The notes beneath the pieces were generated by a model. It did not search any database and had not been told where the DNA came from. It saw only the letters and a program-made list of their open reading frames with translations. 51,074 nucleotides of DNA from a virus: IMG/VR virus record IMGVR_UViG_3300039239_000007, positions 1 to 51,074 of that record; one strand, written 5' to 3'. Each line of letters starts with the position of its first letter. Within the stretch, counting starts at the first letter, position 1. A program made the translations under genes and the position numbers. Shown piece after piece: positions 1,548-38,992 of this stretch.

Positions 1548-1993
1548 TGGATTTCACACAGTTCGATAGCCGCAAGGCATCTGAGAAGCCCCGCGCGCTT
1601 CACCTGAAGCACCCCGGCACTGGCAAGCTGCTCTATGACGAGGACGACAAGGCGAAGCCCTGCCGGGTTCTTGTTCTCGGCATCGAAGGGGCAACAGGCC
1701 AGACGTCCATCCTCGAAAGCCAGCGCGCCCGCATGAAGGAAGATCGATCGGCCGGCGAGCCTGTAACGGTTGAATCCATCCATGCCAATCTCGTGAAGGA
1801 CTTCGCGCCCCTAGTCGTCGGCTTCGAGAATATCAGCCGCGGCAACAAGGCAGCGAAAGCGCCTGATGACGTTGAGTGGTTCCTGAACCTGCAGGTGGTC
1901 AACGGGAACCGGGCGCAGAAATCCTTTGTCGAGCAGGTGAGGGACTTCGCCACCGATCGGGCGGCTATCCTGGGAAACGAGAGCGCCAGCTAG
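1547..1993 (+). CDS. Tail assembly chaperone (lambda gpG analogue)
   Basis: 148 aa, immediately upstream of the tape measure region. Carries a slippery heptamer near its 3' end, and the -1 frame stays open for 117 further codons. Confidence 0.8.
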   Translation: MDFTQFDSRKASEKPRALHLKHPGTGKLLYDEDDKAKPCRVLVLGIEGATGQTSILESQRARMKEDRSAGEPVTVESIHANLVKDFAPLVVGFENISRGNKAAKAPDDVEWFLNLQVVNGNRAQKSFVEQVRDFATDRAAILGNESAS

Positions 1994-2343
1994 TCTTAGC
2001 TGCCCAGCAACTCGGCTGGCTGGCGTCCACGATCACCAATGAGAAGATGAGCCGGGGGCAAAAGTACCTCGTCTCAGGCGTTATTCCGCCGATGCCTGAA
2101 CTGGAGGCCGGCGATTATCTTCTTGATGCCCTCAAGGAACTCGGCCCGATCCGCTCGAATGGAATGGGTCTTGGAACACCGGACTGGCAAGAGCTGGTGG
2201 CCTTCGCGTCAGCAAATGACCTTGCACTCCAGCCTTGGGAGTTTCGACTGATACGAAAGATGGCTTCGGCTTACTTGTCTGGTTTCAACTCGGGCAAAGA
2301 GCCTTTGAGCATTCCGCCGATGGAACGCGAAACTGACCGGTGA
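1547..2343 (+). CDS. Tail assembly chaperone -1 frameshift fusion (gpGT analogue)
   Basis: A -1 shift at G GGA AAC (1972..1978) joins ...AAILG to KRERQLVLAAQQLGW... (the frame of ORF 1876..2343), ending with TGA at 2341..2343. Confidence 0.75.
1972..1978 (+). other. -1 programmed frameshift slippery heptamer G GGA AAC
   Basis: An X XXY YYZ heptamer in the zero frame of the chaperone gene, 13 nt before its stop. Same class as the lambda G/T site GGGAAAG. Confidence 0.75.
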
Positions 2344-2373
2344 AAAGGCGGCTCCGGCCGCCTCAACTGTTTT
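2343..2373. terminator. GC hairpin GGCGGC-tccg-GCCGCC with an A4 tract on one side and a T-rich tract on the other (candidate bidirectional terminator)
   Basis: Perfect 6-bp stem at 2347..2352 / 2357..2362. On the minus strand the hairpin is followed directly by TTTT. On the plus strand it is followed by tcaactgtttt. Confidence 0.45.
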
Positions 2374-2385
2374 AGGAGACGCAAA

Positions 2386-2673
2386 TTGCCAATAGCAAAA
2401 GAGATTTGGATAGAACAGATCAGGCCTACGGAAGAGGCTTCGATTGTGGCGTCATTCGATCTTTATGAGCAGGCGCAAGGCGATCCGGCAGGAGTTGGTA
2501 AGCCTTTCGCTATGCCCGTCCAGGGTATCGGCGAAGTCTGGTTTCAGTTCGTCTGCTGCCTCAAAGGCCAAGCCATTTACTCAGCGAGGCTACCAGATCC
2601 GGAAGCTGATCAAGCCCAGAGTCCAGAGCCTTCTCAGCTAATTTACCGAGAACTTCTGCGGGGGCCTCTTTGA
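2386..2673 (+). CDS. Hypothetical protein (TTG start)
   Basis: AGGAG at 2374..2378 lies 7 nt before the TTG. The last 113 nt run antisense through the 3' end of the minus-strand gene 2561..3046, so the true C-terminus is doubtful. Confidence 0.3.
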   Translation: MPIAKEIWIEQIRPTEEASIVASFDLYEQAQGDPAGVGKPFAMPVQGIGEVWFQFVCCLKGQAIYSARLPDPEADQAQSPEPSQLIYRELLRGPL

Positions 2674-3046
2674 TCTTGGCTATCAACGAGGCTTTGACCG
2701 TATCGTTTGCTCCGGATTCCTTCACCTTTTGAATGAGGAGGGCCTTGATGGTTTCCTCGTGAAGCTTAACGGTCACAACGCCAAGGATGGCGGATAGCCC
2801 GCCATCATCTGTGATAAAATCAATGCCCTTCGCCGTGATCTGTGGATTGATGACGTGCACCTCGCCATCCATAAATGTTTGCCACTTCGCGGTAATCAGT
2901 CCATGTTCGCACAGGTAGTAAAGGTTGTACTTAACCTGCCTTTCATCCCTGTCTTTGAAAGAACTCCGCATATCTGCAGGTTTCGGATATATCTCCGAAA
3001 GCTCACGCAAAATCTGCCGTTGAAAGTCACGATCAAGCAACTCCAT
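2561..3046 (-). CDS. Winged-helix-like protein (DUF2513-like N-terminal half), opposite-strand insert
   Basis: 161 aa. The pattern MELLDRDFQRQILRELSEIY...VKYNLYYLCEHGLI...ITAKGIDFI resembles DUF2513-type wHTH, followed by a helical C-terminal half. Locally AT-richer than the flanking tail genes. Confidence 0.55.
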   Translation of the reverse strand: MELLDRDFQRQILRELSEIYPKPADMRSSFKDRDERQVKYNLYYLCEHGLITAKWQTFMDGEVHVINPQITAKGIDFITDDGGLSAILGVVTVKLHEETIKALLIQKVKESGANDTVKASLIAKIKEAPAEVLGKLAEKALDSGLDQLPDLVASLSKWLGL

Positions 3047-3105
3047 GCATTACTCCTTTAGCTAGGCGCTAGAAAAGGAGCATGGATGCAATCGGGAGTC
3101 GAGTC

Positions 3106-3357
3106 TTAGTCTAGAAGGCCGTTAGCAATACACCACTTTCGGTTACGCTCTTCTCGTTCTGTAAGGTTCGGGCCGAACGGCTCCTTACAGCGTTCACGCA
3201 TGATCTGTTCGTCTTTGATTTGCAGTGCTTGAAAACTTTGTTCAGCCTTTTGCCGCTCGGTAAGCGGCTCTTGGCTGATAAGGGCCCAGGCGCCGATGGC
3301 GGTCAAAATAGCAGCGCCGCCTAAACCTGCGGCTACCATCCTCATCTTTGTATTCAT
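3106..3357 (-). CDS. Small membrane-anchored or secreted protein
   Basis: 83 aa with an N-terminal hydrophobic segment (MVAAGLGGAAILTAIGAWALI) and a charged C-terminal part with 2 Cys. GGAGGAGAG lies upstream of the ATG. Confidence 0.6.
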   Translation of the reverse strand: MNTKMRMVAAGLGGAAILTAIGAWALISQEPLTERQKAEQSFQALQIKDEQIMRERCKEPFGPNLTEREERNRKWCIANGLLD

Positions 3358-3407
3358 ACTCTCCTCCGGTGCGGCTCAAATTCTGCCCACAAGACAGGTA
3401 AAACCGA

Positions 3408-34806: not shown

Positions 34807-35328
34807 GTGGGCAAGCGATCTGATTTCGAGCGTCGGAAAAACGACGCGTACCAGACACCATCGCCAGCAGTCCTTCCGCTCATCCCTCATCTTCGCGGCA
34901 TCAAGACCTTTGCAGAGCCTTGCTCCGGAGAAGGAAAGCTTGTGAGGGCGCTGGAGAGCTATGGCCTCGTCTGCAATTTCTTCGATGACATCGAGAACGG
35001 TTTTGATGCTCTTACTGACGACAGTCTGGAGCTTGCCCGCTTCGATGCTATTATCACTAACCCGCCATGGACGCGCGAAATACTGCACCCAATGATTCTA
35101 CGCTTCCAGTCAATCGCGCCGACGTGGTTGCTCTTTGACGCCGATTGGGTTCATACGCGCCAAGCTCTGCCGTTCCTCGACCAGTGCAGCCACATCGTCA
35201 GCGTTGGACGGGTGAAATGGATCGAGGACTCTAAGTTCACCGGCAAAGACAATGCAGCATGGCACCGTTTCCATAGCCAGCATGTCGGCGGCCCTCGGTT
35301 CTTCGCCAGAGAGGCGGTGGCAGCATGA
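34807..35328 (+). CDS. N6-adenine (amino) DNA methyltransferase, small gamma-type
   Basis: GTG start 8 nt after AGGAGG. Motifs YQTP, FAEPCSGEG (SAM-binding motif I) and IITNPPW (motif IV). Confidence 0.7.
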   Translation: MGKRSDFERRKNDAYQTPSPAVLPLIPHLRGIKTFAEPCSGEGKLVRALESYGLVCNFFDDIENGFDALTDDSLELARFDAIITNPPWTREILHPMILRFQSIAPTWLLFDADWVHTRQALPFLDQCSHIVSVGRVKWIEDSKFTGKDNAAWHRFHSQHVGGPRFFAREAVAA

Positions 35329-36773
35329 ACGCCATGCCACAAGAATTCGCTGCCATACCGGCGAACATCGACGCTGAACAGCAATTGATCGGAGCCTTGC
35401 TGATCAACAACGAAGCGCTGGAAGCTCTTCCGAGCTCGTTTGACGATCGGCATTTCTTCGAGCCGTTTCACCAGTCTGTGTTTCGGGAAATAAAGCGCCT
35501 TGTGGAATTGGGGAAGAGCGCAAACCCTGTGACGGTGAAGGCGGGCGTTGATACCGGCGCCATGATCGGAGACCTCACAACTTCTCAATATCTGGCGCGC
35601 ATGGCGTCCGAGGCCGTTTCCATCATCAACGTTCCCGGATTTGCCCAAGCGATCACATTCGATGCCATGCGCCGCGGTCTCATTTCCGTTGGTGAGCAGG
35701 CGGGGGAGCTTGGCTTTCAATGCGGCGACGAACTGACGTTCATCGAACAGGCAGACGCTCTTAGAGAACAATTTGAGCGCATCGTGCGCGGTCTGGAATC
35801 GGATGATGAACTGACCTTGGCGGATGCGGCCGATCGCGCCCTGAGCGCTACCAACAACGCTTTCCGTGGCAATGGGCATACAGGTGTCGATTATGGCTTC
35901 TCGCCTCTGTCGGGCCTGATCGGGCCAGCAATGCCAGGACAGCTTATCGTGATCGGCGGCGGCACCAAGCAGGGCAAGTCAACGCTCATCGAGCAGATCG
36001 TCATGGGTGCCGCGATGAACGGCCACCCGGTCTGGGTTTATTCCGGGGAAATGCAGGGTGAAGAGCTTGCCCACCGCGCGCTGTCCCGCATCACCGACAT
36101 TCAGGCGTGGCGCCAGATACGCGGAAAGGTTTCGGAATCCGAAGTCGAGAAGCTCATGATCGCCAAGACCAACGCCATGACATGGCAGGAGCGGGTAATC
36201 ATCCGCGACAAACCGATGACGCTGACACAGATAGAGCGATCCGTCACCAACTTCACCGCCCGTCATCCCGGGGGCATGGCTATAGTCGACCATATCGGCC
36301 TCGTGGAGCGCGACAAGAGCAACATGCGGCTCACCGATCAGGATTTCGGCCCGCTCGTCACACGCACGCTCAAGATGCTGGCGAACAAGGCCTCGCTACC
36401 GATCTTCGCGGCGGCACAGCTAAAGAAGAACACCTTCGCGATCGAGGACCGCACCATCACCCGCAAGACCTTCGAGCAGGCCATCAACCGCCGGCCGAAA
36501 TATGCGGACATCCTTGGTTCCGTCGAGAAAGACGCCAACCACGTCATCATTCCATTCCGAGCCGAGCCGATCCTGCAGGAGCTTGAGCCGGTCGAAGGCT
36601 CCATCAACTACGGAGATTGGGAAGCCGTCATGAGCCAAGTGAAAGACAAGGCAGAAATTATCCTAGCCCTGTCCCGCCATACCCGCTGGCCACAGCGAAA
36701 GGAGGTTGGCTGGAACGGCGGCAAGACCATGTTCACCGAACTCAATCCCCACGATCAGGGGAGGATGTTCTGA
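35325..36773 (+). CDS. dnaB: Replicative DNA helicase DnaB
   Basis: 482 aa. N-terminal PANIDAEQQLIGALLINNEAL, Walker A GGGTKQGKST, RecA-like C-terminal domain. Confidence 0.92.
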   Translation: MNAMPQEFAAIPANIDAEQQLIGALLINNEALEALPSSFDDRHFFEPFHQSVFREIKRLVELGKSANPVTVKAGVDTGAMIGDLTTSQYLARMASEAVSIINVPGFAQAITFDAMRRGLISVGEQAGELGFQCGDELTFIEQADALREQFERIVRGLESDDELTLADAADRALSATNNAFRGNGHTGVDYGFSPLSGLIGPAMPGQLIVIGGGTKQGKSTLIEQIVMGAAMNGHPVWVYSGEMQGEELAHRALSRITDIQAWRQIRGKVSESEVEKLMIAKTNAMTWQERVIIRDKPMTLTQIERSVTNFTARHPGGMAIVDHIGLVERDKSNMRLTDQDFGPLVTRTLKMLANKASLPIFAAAQLKKNTFAIEDRTITRKTFEQAINRRPKYADILGSVEKDANHVIIPFRAEPILQELEPVEGSINYGDWEAVMSQVKDKAEIILALSRHTRWPQRKEVGWNGGKTMFTELNPHDQGRMF

Positions 36774-37822
36774 TGGAAGTCCTAGACCTTTTCAGCGCGG
36801 CGGCCGGTGGCTGGTCGCTCGGAATGCACAGGGCCGGGTTCAAAACCATTGCGGCCTGCGAAAACGTCGCGTGGCGCCGCGCAATCTATCAGGAGAACAA
36901 CCCGGATGTCCTTATCTATGACGATGTCTGCACACTCACAGCAGATCGAATTATTCGAGATACCGGACGTTTCCCACCCATCGTCGTCGGAAGCCCCCCG
37001 TGCCAGGACATCTCCAGCGCCAACACAAAAGGCAAAGGCGTCGAAGGGGAAAGAAGCGGCCTCTACTTTGAAGCCATCCGCATCATCGGAGAGGGCCGAC
37101 CTCGTTGGTTCGCTCTTGAAAACAGCTCTAATCTCCGAACTCGGGGAGCTGACGCCGTCCTCGCTGCACTGGAAGCACTCGGCTACACCTGCTGGACGTT
37201 CGTGGTACGTGCTGGGGACATCGGAGCCAATCACGAGCGGCCCAGAAGTTGGATCATTGGCTGCGATCCAGAGCAAGTTGCCGACGCCGATGGCTTCAGA
37301 CGGGATGAAGGATGGAGCCGGGGGTGGTGCGGGTTTGACTTATCCATTTCGAATGATTCTTTCCACGCCGCGGGCCTCAGACATGAAAGCTGGCGGTCAC
37401 GGAGCGCCAGGACGGACCGGTACAGTGAGACACATGTTGCACGAATCGTACCTACCGACTCCTCGGGCTTCGGAGGCCTACCACGGGCCAGATATGACGT
37501 CGCACAGCCCGAACATCAAGGCGCGTCTCCAGAACAACGATCCGAGGTGGCTGGGAGCAATGGCTTTGGCCGAAATTCTTCAGAACCATGGGCTTCGTGG
37601 AACGGCGGCATTACCAATCACATACGGCTGGATGATGGGCTTTCCACCTGGCTGGCTGGCACGCGCATTGCAGTCGGCGGTCCGCGCGGGACATCTGCAG
37701 CAAGTCTTATCGTTGAAGCGTTCGGTGACGCAGTCGTCCCGCAAATCCCGGAAGCAATAGGGAAAGCCATCTTGCGCACGGAAAGAGCCTTGGCGGCAAT
37801 TTATGAAAGGGCGTCGGCATGA
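36773..37822 (+). CDS. DNA (cytosine-5) methyltransferase; central part possibly encoded in the overlapping +1 frame
   Basis: Frame 2 carries DLFSAAAGGWSLG (I), GSPPCQDIS (IV), FALENS (VI), HERPRSWIIG (VIII) and FGDAVVPQIPEAIG (X). TGATG coupling to the dnaB stop. See the finding on frame 3 (36807..37760). Confidence 0.8.
   Translation: MEVLDLFSAAAGGWSLGMHRAGFKTIAACENVAWRRAIYQENNPDVLIYDDVCTLTADRIIRDTGRFPPIVVGSPPCQDISSANTKGKGVEGERSGLYFEAIRIIGEGRPRWFALENSSNLRTRGADAVLAALEALGYTCWTFVVRAGDIGANHERPRSWIIGCDPEQVADADGFRRDEGWSRGWCGFDLSISNDSFHAAGLRHESWRSRSARTDRYSETHVARIVPTDSSGFGGLPRARYDVAQPEHQGASPEQRSEVAGSNGFGRNSSEPWASWNGGITNHIRLDDGLSTWLAGTRIAVGGPRGTSAASLIVEAFGDAVVPQIPEAIGKAILRTERALAAIYERASA
37648..37660 (+). 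repeat. Tetranucleotide tract CTGGCTGGCTGGC, (TGGC)3, inside the C5-MTase gene
   Basis: Read directly from ...tttccacCTGGCTGGCTGGCacgc... Confidence 0.9.
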
Positions 37823-38172
37823 CCAACCAGTACGCGGCATACGTTCAAGAAGTGCCAGGCGGATATAGAGCCATGATCCGGGTATGCCGGGAAGCCAAGC
37901 CGAACCCCGTGATGGACAAGGGCGACAAGCCGAAGATCTATCCAACCAGAGCCGCCGCCCTGACAGAACTGCTGTCTCACGTCGTCGGCTTCATGAACGG
38001 CCGTCCGATCCGCGGCGAGCATTTCAACGATGAACCAGCCACCAGCACTGCCGACGCCCATTTCAACCTCAAGCCATTCGTCAAAGCCAAGGGCAGCAAT
38101 AAGCGAACCATTGTCGAGAAGGCACGACGCAAGGGCAAAGAGACCAGCGTGGAAAGGAGGGAAATGGCATGA
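37819..38172 (+). CDS. Hypothetical protein
   Basis: 117 aa with an ATGA overlap. Confidence 0.6.
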   Translation: MTNQYAAYVQEVPGGYRAMIRVCREAKPNPVMDKGDKPKIYPTRAAALTELLSHVVGFMNGRPIRGEHFNDEPATSTADAHFNLKPFVKAKGSNKRTIVEKARRKGKETSVERREMA

Positions 38173-38507
38173 AGAAGTACGCCACTATCCATTTCGCTTG
38201 CAACGATGGCGACGACGGTTCTTTCGCTGGGAAAGTGTGTGCGGCCTCCTACGGGGAGAATGAACTTGAGACGATCGGCATGGGCGACATCAAGTTCACC
38301 GCCGGCGAAGACTTCATCCGCATTCATCGTCGGACCTTCAAGGTTATTGGCCGGTCGTATTGGGTTGGCAACTGGTGCTGGGACTCGTTCCGCATGACGC
38401 GCAGCGAGGCGAAGAAGCTTTTGGCTTGTCTTCGCAAGAACGGATGGAGGTGTACGCACGGCCGTGTCCACTTCGGCAGATGGATGGATAAGGAACAAGC
38501 AGCATGA
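38169..38507 (+). CDS. Hypothetical Cys/Trp-rich protein
   Basis: 112 aa with an ATGA overlap. Confidence 0.6.
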   Translation: MKKYATIHFACNDGDDGSFAGKVCAASYGENELETIGMGDIKFTAGEDFIRIHRRTFKVIGRSYWVGNWCWDSFRMTRSEAKKLLACLRKNGWRCTHGRVHFGRWMDKEQAA

Positions 38508-38992
38508 AGCGACCAAACGTATACCTCGACCTTGACGGCGTCATGGCTGACTTCGACGCTCACTTTCCGGCCCTGTTCGGTGTCGATCACCGTACGATGC
38601 TTGATGACGACATGTGGGCGACAATCAATGCCCACCCTTCGTATTTCCGAGACATGCCGCAGTGCCCCGGCGCAAAAGAGTTCTTCGACCGGATATCCTG
38701 GCTGAACCCGATCATCCTGACGGCGTGCCCAAAGTCCAATTACGCCCACGTAGCGCGGCAGAAGCGCGAATGGGTGAGGGAACACCTTTCCAGCACCTGC
38801 CATATCCTCCCGGTCATGGGTGGGCGCAATAAGCCTCTCTTCATGCACTCGCGTGGTGACATCCTCATCGATGACTTTGAGCGCAATATCAAGGCTTGGC
38901 GCGAGGAGGGCGGCTTTGGCATCCTTCACACGGATTTTGCAACGTCTCGCGATATGCTGGAGCGTGAAATGGTGCGGAGCGCCGCAGCATGA
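38504..38992 (+). CDS. HAD-family 5'(3')-deoxyribonucleotidase-like protein
   Basis: N-terminal YLDLDGVMADF (DxDxV nucleophile motif) and a later ILIDDF motif. 162 aa, the typical NT5C size. Confidence 0.75.
   Translation: MKRPNVYLDLDGVMADFDAHFPALFGVDHRTMLDDDMWATINAHPSYFRDMPQCPGAKEFFDRISWLNPIILTACPKSNYAHVARQKREWVREHLSSTCHILPVMGGRNKPLFMHSRGDILIDDFERNIKAWREEGGFGILHTDFATSRDMLEREMVRSAAA

What the first reader, a model, noticed from the sequence alone, without database searches (positions are those of the whole stretch)
36773..37822. C5-methyltransferase motifs are distributed over two overlapping open frames; the return junction lies on a (TGGC)3 tract
Seen: two same-strand ORFs stay open over the same ~950 nt. 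They are frame 2 (36773..37822) and frame 3 (36807..37760). Frame 2 carries motifs I (DLFSAAAGGWSLG), IV (GSPPCQDIS), VI (FALENS) and VIII (HERPRSWIIG) up to about 37260, and motif X (FGDAVVPQIPEAIG) after about 37700. Between those points frame 2 is R/S/W-rich with nothing recognisable. In exactly that interval frame 3 reads three spaced boxes, KLPTPMASDG, LSTPRASDM and LPTPRASEA, and then ITYGWMMGFPPGW. From memory, these resemble the variable region and motif IX (..EWLMGFP.GW..) of phage-type C5-MTases. The frame 3-to-2 junction coincides with CTGGCTGGCTGGC (37648..37660). One additional TGGC unit would give ...GWMMGFPPGWLAGTRIAVGGPRGTSAASLIVEAFGDAVVPQ... in a single frame. The frame 2-to-3 junction must lie within about 37260..37275, where no repeat is seen. 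Inference: there are three possibilities. The gene may be a decayed methyltransferase that still looks intact to ORF callers. It may be an on/off switch driven by repeat length. Or it may involve recoding.
Basis: partly seen in the sequence, partly recalled or inferred. Interest (0 to 1): 0.7.

Follow-up and report, generated by a model that had tools for sequence, protein, structure and literature searches.

The report
Two-subunit methyltransferase from nested genes
What looked like a frameshifted DNA cytosine methyltransferase gene is most likely two overlapping genes on the same DNA, one nested inside the other in a different reading frame, which probably encode the catalytic and the DNA-recognition subunits of one enzyme; the layout is conserved in over a hundred phages and mobile elements and is routinely mis-annotated.

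Summary
Frame 2 (36773..37822, "alpha", 349 aa) carries C5-methyltransferase motifs I-VIII and X. Frame 3 carries LPTPxASD-type boxes and a motif-IX-like GWMMGFPPGW.

It is not decay, a (TGGC)n switch or ribosomal recoding. The same layout (N-domain in frame f, box/IX region in f+1, motif X back in f) occurs in 139 of 148 related loci from phages, ICEs and prophages of Alphaproteobacteria, and in two distant relatives.

- **Alpha stays open:** its frame has no stop across the middle in 102/102 non-redundant loci, against 3.4 expected.
- **Frame 3 is a gene ("beta", 36906..37760, 284 aa):** 99/100 loci have an in-frame ATG at alpha codons 45-51. Protein-level selection acts even where beta overlaps alpha's catalytic domain (alpha codons 110-147) and alpha's pre-motif-X segment (271-302).
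- **Beta homologues:** about 950 clusters, all separate proteins.
- **Alpha's middle:** unconstrained and predicted disordered.

Best reading: a heterodimeric C5-methyltransferase built like M.EcoHK31I, the one characterised enzyme whose beta gene lies inside the alpha gene in another frame. Here the target-recognition part appears to sit in beta. Subunit assembly and activity are inferred, not shown. Confidence about 0.8.

The parts
36758..36764 (+). Shine-Dalgarno-like GGGGAGG, 8 nt upstream of the alpha start
   Evidence: Read from the sequence. The stop TGA of the upstream dnaB-like ORF (36771..36773) overlaps the alpha ATG.
36773..37822 (+). alpha ORF (349 aa, frame 2). It holds the catalytic N-domain, an unconstrained linker and a conserved C-terminal part with motif X.
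   Evidence: PF00145 matches residues 1-168 at 109 bits. An identical 349-aa protein is present in public assemblies and 88%-identical relatives are named DNA cytosine methyltransferase. The alpha frame is open in 102/102 loci.
36773..37276 (+). alpha codons 1-168: large-domain part with motifs I (36785..36823), IV (36989..37015), VI (37109..37126) and VIII (37232..37261)
   Evidence: Pfam. The AF2 model is confident over residues 1-170. Foldseek matches M.HaeIII, 3g7u and DNMT1. phmmer against PDB.
36891..36895 (+). AGGAG, 10 nt upstream of the first beta-frame ATG (candidate ribosome-binding site for beta)
   Evidence: A GGAG/GAGG lies 9-10 nt upstream of the beta ATG in about 60% of loci, and its position moves with the ATG (alpha codon 45 or 49).
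36906..37760 (+). beta ORF (284 aa, frame 3 = alpha +1), wholly nested in alpha. Alternative in-frame ATGs lie at 36918 and 36924.
   Evidence: There are 160 homologues with E<=0.01, all 100-291 aa and none with PF00145. About 956 clusters at 50% identity match the beta profile. Beta matches phrog_1008 at E 7e-16.
36939..36956 (+). beta residues 12-17, QQIELF: the conserved N-terminal Q-x-D/E-L-F motif
   Evidence: Unusual alpha codons are kept here (Ala57 GCA in 92/100, codon 60 CTT in 86/100). They fix the beta residues Q and L/F.
37100..37214 (+). Dual-coding segment 1. Alpha codons 110-147 (motif VI to just before motif VIII) overlap beta residues 66-103 (LVGSLLKTALISEL...W.xSATPAGRxWxVL).
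   Evidence: alpha-synonymous sites are frozen on rare codons (CCT 97/100, GCT 100/100, ACT 96/100, GTG 99/99). Beta residues stay invariant where alpha varies (alpha codons 119, 139, 146). Synonymous heterozygosity is 0.24 against 0.41-0.45 elsewhere, p=4e-4. AF2 gives a helix plus hairpin with pLDDT 76-88.
37277..37582 (+). Region constrained only in the beta frame. Alpha codons 169-270 are an unconstrained R/S/W/G-rich linker. Beta here holds the modular xPTPxxxD boxes (37275..37304, 37359..37385, 37452..37478).
   Evidence: diversity is highest at alpha codon position 1, which is beta position 3. The length of this region ranges from 152 to 761 nt between loci. AF2 pLDDT for alpha is below 50 over residues 174-321. 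The alpha frame has 0 stops in 102/102 loci against 3.4 expected.
37583..37678 (+). Dual-coding segment 2. Alpha codons 271-302 (EPWxxWNGG..H.R.DDG.S.W.A..RIAVG) overlap the beta C-terminal conserved domain (beta 214-264 = 37545..37697).
   Evidence: Synonymous heterozygosity is 0.00 (p=5e-7). Alpha W276, H283, R298 and G302 are invariant while the overlapping beta residue varies. The beta string G-L-x-G-T-A-A-L-P-x-T-Y-G-W-M-M-G-F/Y-P-P-G-W-L is invariant or nearly so.
37617..37655 (+). beta ITYGWMMGFPPGW: the motif-IX-like element
   Evidence: Invariant in the beta alignments. Distant relatives read EWLMG(L/Y)PPGW or VEWMMGYPAGW. It is identified as motif IX by resemblance only; no HMM or fold match was obtained.
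37649..37660 (+). (TGGC)3 tract: a by-product of the codons for G-W-L-A, not a switch
   Evidence: Of the related loci, 10 have 3 units, 73 have 2 and 59 have 1. The differences are always synonymous Gly-codon changes, never a change in length.
37721..37762 (+). alpha motif X (FGDAVVPQIPEAIG), read in the alpha frame only
   Evidence: diversity is highest at alpha codon position 3 again from codon 303 on. The motif is invariant in 66 alpha homologues. AF2 is confident over residues 322-349.

Best explanation
The locus holds two genes on the same strand, not one broken gene.

**The two products.** Alpha (36773..37822, frame 2) is translated straight through. It gives the catalytic large domain of a C5-cytosine methyltransferase (motifs I-VIII), then a roughly 100-aa unconstrained, disordered tether, then a conserved C-terminal part with motif X that completes the large domain. 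Beta (36906..37760, frame 3 = +1) starts at its own ATG inside alpha and ends 62 nt before alpha's stop. It has four parts:
- a short conserved N-terminus (Q-x-D/E-L-F);
- a conserved helix-hairpin element encoded over alpha's motif VI to VIII region;
- a variable number of xPTPxxxD modules;
- a conserved C-terminal domain with a motif-IX-like (E/G)W(L/M)MG(F/Y)PxGW.

**Proposed mechanism.** Beta supplies the small domain (target recognition plus motif IX) that alpha lacks. The two chains would assemble into one active enzyme, as in M.EcoHK31I. The enzyme would methylate the DNA of the phage or mobile element, presumably to protect it from host restriction.

**Shown here:**
- both frames are open and under protein-level purifying selection in alternating and partly shared segments;
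- beta has a conserved start codon;
- beta always occurs as a separate nested ORF.

**Inferred:**
- beta is initiated internally on the alpha mRNA;
- alpha and beta bind each other;
- beta determines DNA specificity;
- both are needed for activity.
For: 1. **Conserved layout.** N-domain in frame f, box/IX region in f+1 and motif X in f, in 139/148 loci from Rhizobium phages, IMG/VR contigs, and ICEs and prophages of Paracoccus, Acetobacter, Sphingomonas, Methylosinus and others.
2. **Alpha is read through.** There are 0 alpha-frame stops in the 152-761 nt middle region in 102/102 non-redundant loci. Synonymous shuffling of the beta codons gives 3.4 per locus, and the mean probability of zero is 0.046 per locus. 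The third frame has 5-14 stops.
3. **Which frame is selected changes along the gene.** Alpha position 3 is the most variable in codons 1-105, 151-168 and 303-349. Alpha position 1 (= beta position 3) is the most variable in codons 171-270.
4. **True dual coding at alpha codons 110-147 and 271-302.** Alpha-synonymous sites are frozen on rare codons: Ala GCT 100/100 against a 10% background, Pro CCT 97/100 against 6%, Thr ACT 96% against 13%, Val GTG 99/99 against 11%. Beta residues are invariant where alpha varies, and the reverse holds for alpha W276, H283, R298 and G302.
5. **Beta start.** 99/100 loci have a beta-frame ATG at alpha codons 45-51. His45 is CAT in 46/47 (background 34%). Where there is no ATG at codon 45, Tyr49 is TAT in 41/49 (background 38%). 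Seventeen loci have a beta-frame stop at codon 46-47 followed by an ATG within 2-5 codons. A GGAG lies 9-10 nt upstream in about 60% of loci.
6. **Beta is always a separate protein.** There are 160 close homologues and about 956 clusters, all 64-426 aa and starting at their own residue 1-10. None is a genuine in-frame fusion to PF00145; the only fusions are 1-nt indel products that destroy catalytic motifs.
7. **The nested layout recurs in distant relatives.** L148 has alpha 2320..3372 and beta 2501..3298. L150, from a gammaproteobacterial MAG, has alpha 1817..3049 and beta 2001..2957. In both, beta is in the +1 frame.
8. **Structure models.** Alpha is confident over residues 1-170 and 322-349 and has pLDDT below 50 over 174-321. 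Its large domain matches M.HaeIII and DNMT1.
[quoted passage not shown] The alpha and beta chains require association for methyltransferase activity (PMC2836561; PMC3404938).
Against: - There is no direct evidence that beta is translated (no proteomics or ribosome profiling).
- There is no evidence that alpha and beta interact or that either is active.
- The motif-IX assignment rests on resemblance only. No HMM, PDB-sequence or fold search linked beta to the small domain of a solved methyltransferase, and the AF2 model of beta alone is poor (mean pLDDT 58.7).
- A canonical Shine-Dalgarno sequence upstream of the beta ATG is missing in about 40% of loci.
- The loci share ancestry, so the combined statistics overstate independence.
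Confidence: 0.8

Rival explanations
1. Double programmed ribosomal frameshift. One polypeptide is made by a +1 shift after motif VIII (about 37262-37275) and a -1 shift after GFPPGW (about 37656-37700). This would restore the canonical order I-VIII, TRD, IX, X.
For: The composite reads like a canonical enzyme order. The two-frame layout is conserved, which any functional recoding model also predicts.
Against: - Nothing in this model requires the alpha frame to stay open through the middle, yet it has 0 stops in 102/102 loci against 3.4 expected.
- Beta has a conserved ATG and conserved N-terminal elements 120 codons upstream of the supposed shift site.
- Alpha-specific invariant residues W276 and H283 lie upstream of any possible return site and would not be translated.
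- No X XXY YYZ or stop-codon-type shift site is seen, and both junction regions vary in sequence.
Confidence: 0.05
2. Beta is a real, translated overlapping gene, but its function is unrelated to methylation (for example another DNA-binding or anti-defence protein). In that case alpha is a self-sufficient methyltransferase with a minimal recognition element in its conserved 271-302 segment.
For: Beta has no detectable similarity to solved methyltransferase small domains. Alpha keeps a conserved 30-aa segment before motif X. Alpha aligns end to end with phrog_363.
Against: - In every locus examined, beta is nested in, or carried with, this type of methyltransferase gene.
- Alpha has no conserved or structured region where the recognition domain and motif IX should be.
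- Beta carries a (E/G)W(L/M)MG(F/Y)PxGW motif at the position expected for motif IX, just before motif X.
- The M.EcoHK31I precedent (PMC2836561).
- phrog_1008, which beta matches, is labelled DNA methyltransferase.
Confidence: 0.1
3. A decaying methyltransferase pseudogene carries two compensating frameshifts, and it still looks intact to ORF callers.
For: In the window taken alone, the middle of frame 2 has no recognisable motifs.
Against: The same two-frame layout occurs in 139/148 loci, with N-domain identity down to about 60%. Purifying selection acts in whichever frame is coding, and neither frame has a stop. Real indel-damaged copies (L101, L124, L146, P0422, P0448) look different and are rare.
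Confidence: 0.01
4. A phase-variable on/off switch works through changes in the number of TGGC units at 37649..37660.
For: Three tandem TGGC units lie at the place where frame 3 could be joined to frame 2.
Against: Three units are too few for efficient slippage (general knowledge of phase-variable mod genes, which carry many units). Across 142 related loci the tract has 1-3 units through synonymous Gly-codon substitutions only. There is no length change and never a fourth unit. Both overlapping frames are strongly conserved there.
Confidence: 0.01
5. Frame 3 is merely a GC-driven shadow ORF that is never translated.
For: Within the N-domain, the low number of beta-frame stops is largely explained by composition (0.68 observed against 1.27 expected).
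Against: Diversity in the middle region peaks at beta codon position 3. Beta residues stay invariant where alpha residues vary. Homologues show conserved motifs at 38-60% identity. The ATG is conserved.
Confidence: 0.02

Closest known systems
M.EcoHK31I (E. coli HK31; Lee, Kam and Shaw 1995, as described in PMC2836561 and PMC3404938)
   Same: It is a C5-cytosine methyltransferase made of two polypeptides. The beta gene lies entirely inside the alpha gene in a different reading frame. [quoted passage not shown] The N-terminal part of beta is needed for association with alpha. Plasmid names in PMC2836561 (pET3a-M38, pET3a-C23) suggest sizes of about 38 and 23 kDa, similar in proportion to the 349 and 284 aa here; this size reading is my inference.
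   Different: Sequence homology could not be tested. The literature assigns the predicted target-recognition domain of M.EcoHK31I to alpha. Here the alpha region between motifs VIII and X is unconstrained and predicted disordered, and the conserved recognition-like modules are in beta. Here beta starts as far upstream as the motif III/IV region of alpha, and about 70 codons are under selection in both frames. M.EcoHK31I belongs to a restriction-modification system, whereas this gene sits in a phage replication module with no adjacent endonuclease identified.
M.AquI (Agmenellum quadruplicatum; Karreman and de Waard 1990, via PMC3404938)
   Same: It is a natural two-polypeptide C5-methyltransferase split within the variable region.
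   Different: In M.AquI, alpha has motifs I-VIII plus part of the variable region, and beta has the rest plus motifs IX and X. It is therefore a simple linear split between two consecutive chains, and motif X is on beta. Here motif X returns to alpha and beta is fully nested.
Nested same-strand phage gene pairs such as lambda Rz/Rz1 (from general knowledge)
   Same: One gene lies wholly within another in the +1 frame, and the two products form one functional complex.
   Different: The function is unrelated (spanin). There the embedded gene is short, whereas here beta covers 81% of alpha.
Single-chain C5-methyltransferases (M.HaeIII, M.HhaI, prophage CP-933R enzyme 3g7u)
   Same: The alpha N-domain matches them in sequence and fold. 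The catalytic motifs PPCQ, ENS/ENV and the R-x-R of motif VIII are present.
   Different: In those enzymes the recognition domain and motif IX lie in the same chain, between motifs VIII and X. Motif X here reads GD instead of GN.

Membership tests
Heterodimeric C5-methyltransferase with nested beta gene (M.EcoHK31I type) | Alpha carries motifs I-VIII and X in one continuous reading frame | tested here: met
   Motifs were read in frame 2. PF00145 matches residues 1-168. Motif X is invariant in 66 homologues. The alpha frame is open in 102/102 loci.
Heterodimeric C5-methyltransferase with nested beta gene (M.EcoHK31I type) | The beta ORF lies entirely within the alpha ORF in a different frame | tested here: met
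   Beta 36906..37760 (frame 3) lies inside alpha 36773..37822 (frame 2). The same holds in related loci and in L148 and L150.
Heterodimeric C5-methyltransferase with nested beta gene (M.EcoHK31I type) | Beta carries conserved motif IX | tested here: inconclusive
   GWMMGFPPGW / EWLMG(L/Y)PPGW is invariant and lies at the expected place. No HMM, PDB or fold match ties it to motif IX of solved enzymes.
Heterodimeric C5-methyltransferase with nested beta gene (M.EcoHK31I type) | Both polypeptides are made, and both are needed for methylation | not testable with these tools
   Only indirect evidence is available: protein-level selection in both frames and a conserved beta ATG.
Heterodimeric C5-methyltransferase with nested beta gene (M.EcoHK31I type) | Sequence homology to M.EcoHK31I alpha and beta | not tested
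The 1995 paper is not held, no supplements are held, and there was no match in E. coli genomes at the DNA level.
C-5 cytosine DNA methylase (Pfam PF00145) | The whole-protein score exceeds the gathering threshold | tested here: met
   Alpha scores 109.4 bits against a cut-off of 22, but only over profile positions 1-165 of 324. Beta has no Pfam match.
Programmed ribosomal frameshift gene | A conserved slippery or shift-prone site at the junction, with the zero frame closing soon after it | tested here: not met
   No slippery heptamer or in-frame stop is seen at either junction. The zero (alpha) frame stays open for 152-761 nt in 102/102 loci.
Phase-variable methyltransferase with a simple-sequence repeat | A repeat tract whose unit number varies between relatives or within populations and shifts the frame | tested here: not met
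   The tract has 1-3 TGGC units, which differ only through synonymous substitutions. There is no length variation in 142 loci. Population reads are not available.
Pseudogene | Relaxed selection, with stops and indels accumulating in the former coding frame | tested here: not met
   Purifying selection follows the coding frame along the gene, and neither frame has stops.

The most novel reading that the evidence does not exclude
A large family of phage-, prophage- and ICE-borne C5-methyltransferases consists of obligate heterodimers encoded by fully nested same-strand genes. The family is at least about 950 beta clusters at 50% identity, spans Alpha- to Gammaproteobacteria, and is today annotated either as one ordinary methyltransferase gene or as a lone hypothetical protein. 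In these enzymes the whole small domain (target recognition plus motif IX) is read from the +1 frame. The 'variable region' of the annotated protein is only a tether that must stay free of stops. About 70 codons are under protein-level selection in two frames at once. If M.EcoHK31I belongs to this family, its recognition domain has been assigned to the wrong subunit since 1995.
Probability: 0.55. Interest if true: 0.75.

Novelty: new member of a known kind. Interest (0 to 1): 0.62.

Why it matters
- **Annotation.** Pipelines call either alpha only (this phage, RefSeq 'DNA cytosine methyltransferase') or beta only (L148, L150). One subunit is therefore missing from every record, and expressing the annotated gene alone would probably give an inactive or non-specific enzyme.
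- **Specificity.** The part that is expected to set DNA specificity is invisible in the annotated protein. Predicting specificity, or engineering these enzymes, from the alpha sequence would fail.
- **Overlapping genes.** This is an unusually long (855 nt) and deeply conserved same-strand nested pair, with mapped segments of single-frame and dual-frame selection. It is a good natural model for how two proteins share one sequence.
- **A natural split enzyme.** A C5-methyltransferase split between large and small domains is the format sought for targeted-methylation tools (PMC2836561). A family with many modular beta subunits would widen that toolbox.

Tried and rejected
- **Pfam, NCBIfam:** nothing for the frame-3 product or for distant beta relatives. 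PHROGs gave only phrog_1008.
- **PDB sequence searches:** beta alone, a beta profile and a frame-2/3/2 composite gave either no hit or hits to the N-domain only.
- **AF2 of beta alone:** low confidence, and Foldseek returned noise. The structure-prediction tool models one chain at a time, so alpha plus beta could not be modelled together.
- **Search for genuine single-chain relatives** with the beta modules in frame behind PF00145: only P0422, P0448 and P0277 turned up. All three are 1-nt indel fusions that delete catalytic motifs. The frame exceptions L101, L124 and L146 are likewise indel copies; L124 is 99.7% identical to the regular L121.
- **Attempts to obtain the M.EcoHK31I sequence or paper failed**. 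DNA search of E. coli genomes with a distant relative gave no match. The plasmid and phage collections gave only family members annotated as a single methyltransferase or not annotated at all.
- **Openness of the beta frame across the first 45 alpha codons** is not significant (0.68 stops observed against 1.27 expected). The GTG at 36807 is therefore not taken as the start.
- **The repeat-switch idea** was rejected after counting TGGC units.


Full report
**1.

The window has a frame-2 ORF at 36773..37822 (349 aa) and a frame-3 ORF open over 36807..37760.

- Frame 2 reads motif I (DLFSAAAGGWSLG), IV (GSPPCQDIS), VI (FALENS), VIII (HERPRSWIIG) and X (FGDAVVPQIPEAIG).
- Between residues 169 and 270 frame 2 is R/S/W/G-rich with nothing recognisable.
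- Frame 3 reads KLPTPMASDG, LSTPRASDM, LPTPRASEA and ITYGWMMGFPPGW at the stated places (coordinates).
- CTGGCTGGCTGGC is at 37648..37660.
- Pfam PF00145 matches only residues 1-168 of the frame-2 protein. It finds nothing in frame 3 and is not improved by a frame-2/3/2 composite.
- This is the only pair of same-strand open stretches of at least 200 codons that overlap by at least 450 nt anywhere in the 51-kb window.

**2. The two-frame layout is conserved, so it is not damage**

The three related GenBank phages are Rhizobium phages RHph_N2, RHEph18 and RHph_X2_25, at 77-83% nucleotide identity. Each annotates one 'DNA-cytosine methyltransferase' ORF equivalent to frame 2. In those examined (RHph_N2 and RHph_X2_25) the +1 frame is open as well and reads the same kind of boxes plus Y(G/N)WMMG(F/Y)PPGWL.

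I collected 147 further loci from species-representative genomes, IMG/VR and contigs that encode homologues. Using the window's N-domain (A), box/IX core (B) and motif-X part (C) as probes, 139 of 148 loci show A in frame f, B in f+1 and C back in f. The exceptions are of two kinds:
- IS110 insertions in A, in Paracoccus;
- a few 1-nt indel copies. L124 is 99.7% identical to the regular L121 apart from two gaps, and L101 and L146 have single indels.

**3. Alpha (frame 2) is read straight through**

In 102 non-redundant loci the alpha frame has no stop in the 152-761 nt between motif VIII and the motif-X part, and the beta frame has none either. The third frame has 5-14. Shuffling synonymous codons of the beta frame within each locus gives 3.4 alpha-frame stops on average. 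Only 4.6% of shuffles are free of stops.

The loci are related, so the combined probability is not a true p-value. Even so, 102 of 102 cannot be explained by composition. A model in which ribosomes leave frame 2 after motif VIII and return before motif X gives no reason for this.

**4. Which frame is under selection changes along the gene**

I built a codon alignment of 101 alpha ORFs and numbered it by the window's alpha codons.

| Alpha codons | Diversity pattern | Reading |
|---|---|---|
| 1-105, 151-168, 303-349 | highest at alpha position 3 | ordinary alpha coding |
| 171-270 | highest at alpha position 1 (= beta position 3) | only beta is constrained |
| 110-147 | all positions similarly low | both frames constrained |
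| 271-302 | all positions very low | both frames constrained |

Codon-level detail shows real dual coding.
- Pro110 is CCT in 97/100.
- Ala114 is GCT in 100/100.
- Thr123 is ACT in 96/100.
- Val144 is GTG in 99/99.
- Ala147 is GCT in 94/100.
- In alpha-only parts of the same genes these codons make up 6%, 10%, 13%, 11% and 10% of their families.

The frozen bases fix the beta residues L.GSLL..AL.SEL...T..S..W..SATPA...W.VL. At alpha codons 119, 139 and 146 the alpha residue varies (A/S/P, A/T/S, G/R/S) while the beta residue is invariant.

Synonymous heterozygosity at conserved alpha residues is:
- 0.41-0.45 in alpha-only zones;
- 0.24 in codons 110-147 (p=4e-4);
- 0.00 in codons 271-302 (p=5e-7).

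In codons 271-302 the reverse also occurs. Alpha W276, H283, R298 and G302 are invariant while the overlapping beta residue varies. Alpha is therefore translated and constrained upstream of any place where a shifted ribosome could come back.

**5. Beta has its own start**

- The beta frame carries an ATG at alpha codons 45-51 in 99 of 100 loci.
- Where alpha has His45 the codon is CAT in 46/47 (background 34%), which makes C-ATG-G.
- Where there is no ATG at codon 45, Tyr49 is TAT in 41/49 (background 38%). The remaining TAC loci have an ATG at codon 50 or 51 instead; L147 has none.
- Seventeen loci have a beta-frame stop at codon 46-47 and then an ATG within 2-5 codons. That pins the start.
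- A GGAG/GAGG lies 9-10 nt upstream of whichever ATG is used in about 60% of loci.
- In the window, AGGAG at 36891..36895 precedes the ATG at 36906, and further ATGs lie at 36918 and 36924.
- A conserved Q-x-D/E-L-F follows, again held by unusual alpha codons (GCA at codon 57 in 92/100, CTT at codon 60 in 86/100).

Beta is therefore 36906 (or 36918)..37760, 284 aa, entirely inside alpha. Its stop position is not conserved: it is a TGA at alpha codon 312 in 44 loci and lies later in the rest. The functional end of beta is therefore about ...GWLARAL.SAV..G.L.

**6. Beta is a widespread protein that is always separate**

- The frame-3 product has 160 homologues at E<=0.01 in 5.8 billion proteins. 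All are 100-291 aa 'hypothetical proteins', and none has PF00145.
- A profile search of 1.84 billion representatives finds 956 clusters at E<=1e-3 and 272 at E<=1e-10. The top 150 are 64-426 aa and mostly begin at their own N-terminus.
- The only hits that combine PF00145 with beta modules (P0422, P0448, P0277) are indel fusions that delete motifs IV or VI-VIII, or the recognition region.
- Two distant relatives were opened. In L148, alpha is 2320..3372 (GGFPCQ, ENV, PHRRQRVW, LGNAVVPQ) and beta is 2501..3298, ending ...FVEWMMGYPAGWTD. In L150, from a gammaproteobacterial MAG, alpha is 1817..3049 and beta is 2001..2957. Both betas are in the +1 frame, and in both records only beta had been called.
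- PHROGs places beta in phrog_1008 ('DNA methyltransferase', E 7e-16) and alpha in phrog_363.

**7. Structure**

The alpha model is confident for residues 1-170 and 322-349 and below pLDDT 50 for 174-321. The confident part matches the large domain of M.HaeIII, the CP-933R prophage enzyme and DNMT1.

Beta alone models poorly (mean pLDDT 58.7). Two parts stand out:
- a helix plus hairpin at residues 59-105, which is the dual-coded segment (pLDDT 76-88);
- moderately confident C-terminal helices.

Foldseek gave nothing meaningful for beta.

**8. What it most likely is**

In C5-methyltransferases the large domain is built from motifs I-VIII and X. The small domain is the recognition domain plus motif IX, and all specific DNA contacts are made by the small domain (PMC3404938, background section).

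Alpha here is a complete large domain with a passive tether where the small domain should be. Beta has the conserved, modular and motif-IX-like sequence that alpha lacks. The literature describes exactly one such arrangement. [quoted passage not shown] M.AquI is the only other natural two-chain enzyme, and it is split linearly (PMC3404938).

I conclude that this is a heterodimeric enzyme of the M.EcoHK31I type. Nested coding and selection in both frames are shown. Internal initiation, assembly, and recognition by beta are inferred.

One point differs from the published description of M.EcoHK31I. There the 'predicted TRD' is placed in alpha. In this family that region is demonstrably unconstrained, and the conserved modules are in beta.

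**9. The repeat**

(TGGC)3 is simply CCT GGC TGG CTG GCA, which codes P-G-W-L-A in beta and T-W-L-A-G in alpha. Close relatives use GGT, GGA or GGG for the glycine, which leaves two units. Across 142 loci the counts are 10 with three units, 73 with two and 59 with one, and the length never changes.

**10. Context**

- The gene sits in a phage replication module. A dnaB-like helicase (35325..36773) ends with a TGA that overlaps the alpha ATG, and the next ORF starts at an ATGA that overlaps the alpha stop.
- An identical alpha protein occurs on eight public contigs; in the one locus inspected only alpha is called.
- The closest named relatives are 'DNA cytosine methyltransferase' of Agrobacterium (88% identity).

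**11. Verdict**

The finding is real and interesting, but the mechanism is not the one proposed. It is a new member of a known but very rarely recognised kind, and probably the tip of a large, mis-annotated family. Interest 0.62. Confidence in the nested alpha/beta heterodimer reading is 0.8.

Noticed in passing
L003 830..2912, L004, L005, L019 (Paracoccus ICE-like loci): An IS110-family transposase gene (PF02371) is inserted inside the alpha N-terminal domain, splitting it into residues 1-119 and 118-163. Beta and the motif-X part downstream are still intact.
   Followed up: partly
L148 2320..3372; L150 1817..3049; L006 2445..3002; L007 2454..3029: Gene calling fails in several ways at these loci. 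In L148 and L150 only beta is called and the alpha methyltransferase ORF is missed. In L006 and L007 an antisense ORF is called over the alpha N-domain. In the window-like contig L149 only alpha is called.
   Followed up: partly
window 37721..37732 (alpha residues 317-320): Motif X reads F-G-D-A instead of the canonical G-N. The Asp is invariant in 66 alpha homologues of the alphaproteobacterial family, whereas the distant relatives L148 and L150 have LGNAV and LGNGV.
   Followed up: no
window 36771..36775 and 37819..37822: Start and stop codons overlap on both sides of alpha: TGATG with the upstream dnaB-like helicase ORF (35325..36773), and ATGA with the downstream 117-aa ORF (37819..38172). 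This suggests translational coupling along the replication module.
   Followed up: no
window 37311..37330; L101 about 2480..2500: The G-rich run that encodes beta's GAGGGAG box (GGAGCCGGGGGTGGTGCGGG) coincides with the frameshift in the damaged copy L101. This is a possible indel hotspot, or a place prone to sequencing errors.
   Followed up: no
window 37277..37582 and equivalent regions of 102 loci: The number and type of xPTPxxxD modules in beta varies widely between loci; the middle region is 152-761 nt long. The modules look shuffled between lineages, for example LATPRKTDADRGGRGD, LPTPTKRDKRMDAWSPAYDKRKSPTMD and MGTPTANPAPRGS. This suggests modular exchange of specificity elements.
   Followed up: partly
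window 38504..38992: The ORF downstream of the methyltransferase module corresponds to a 162-aa gene with a PF06941 (NT5C, 5'(3')-deoxyribonucleotidase) hit in the near-identical contig L149. It may be a nucleotide-pool function in the same module.
   Followed up: no
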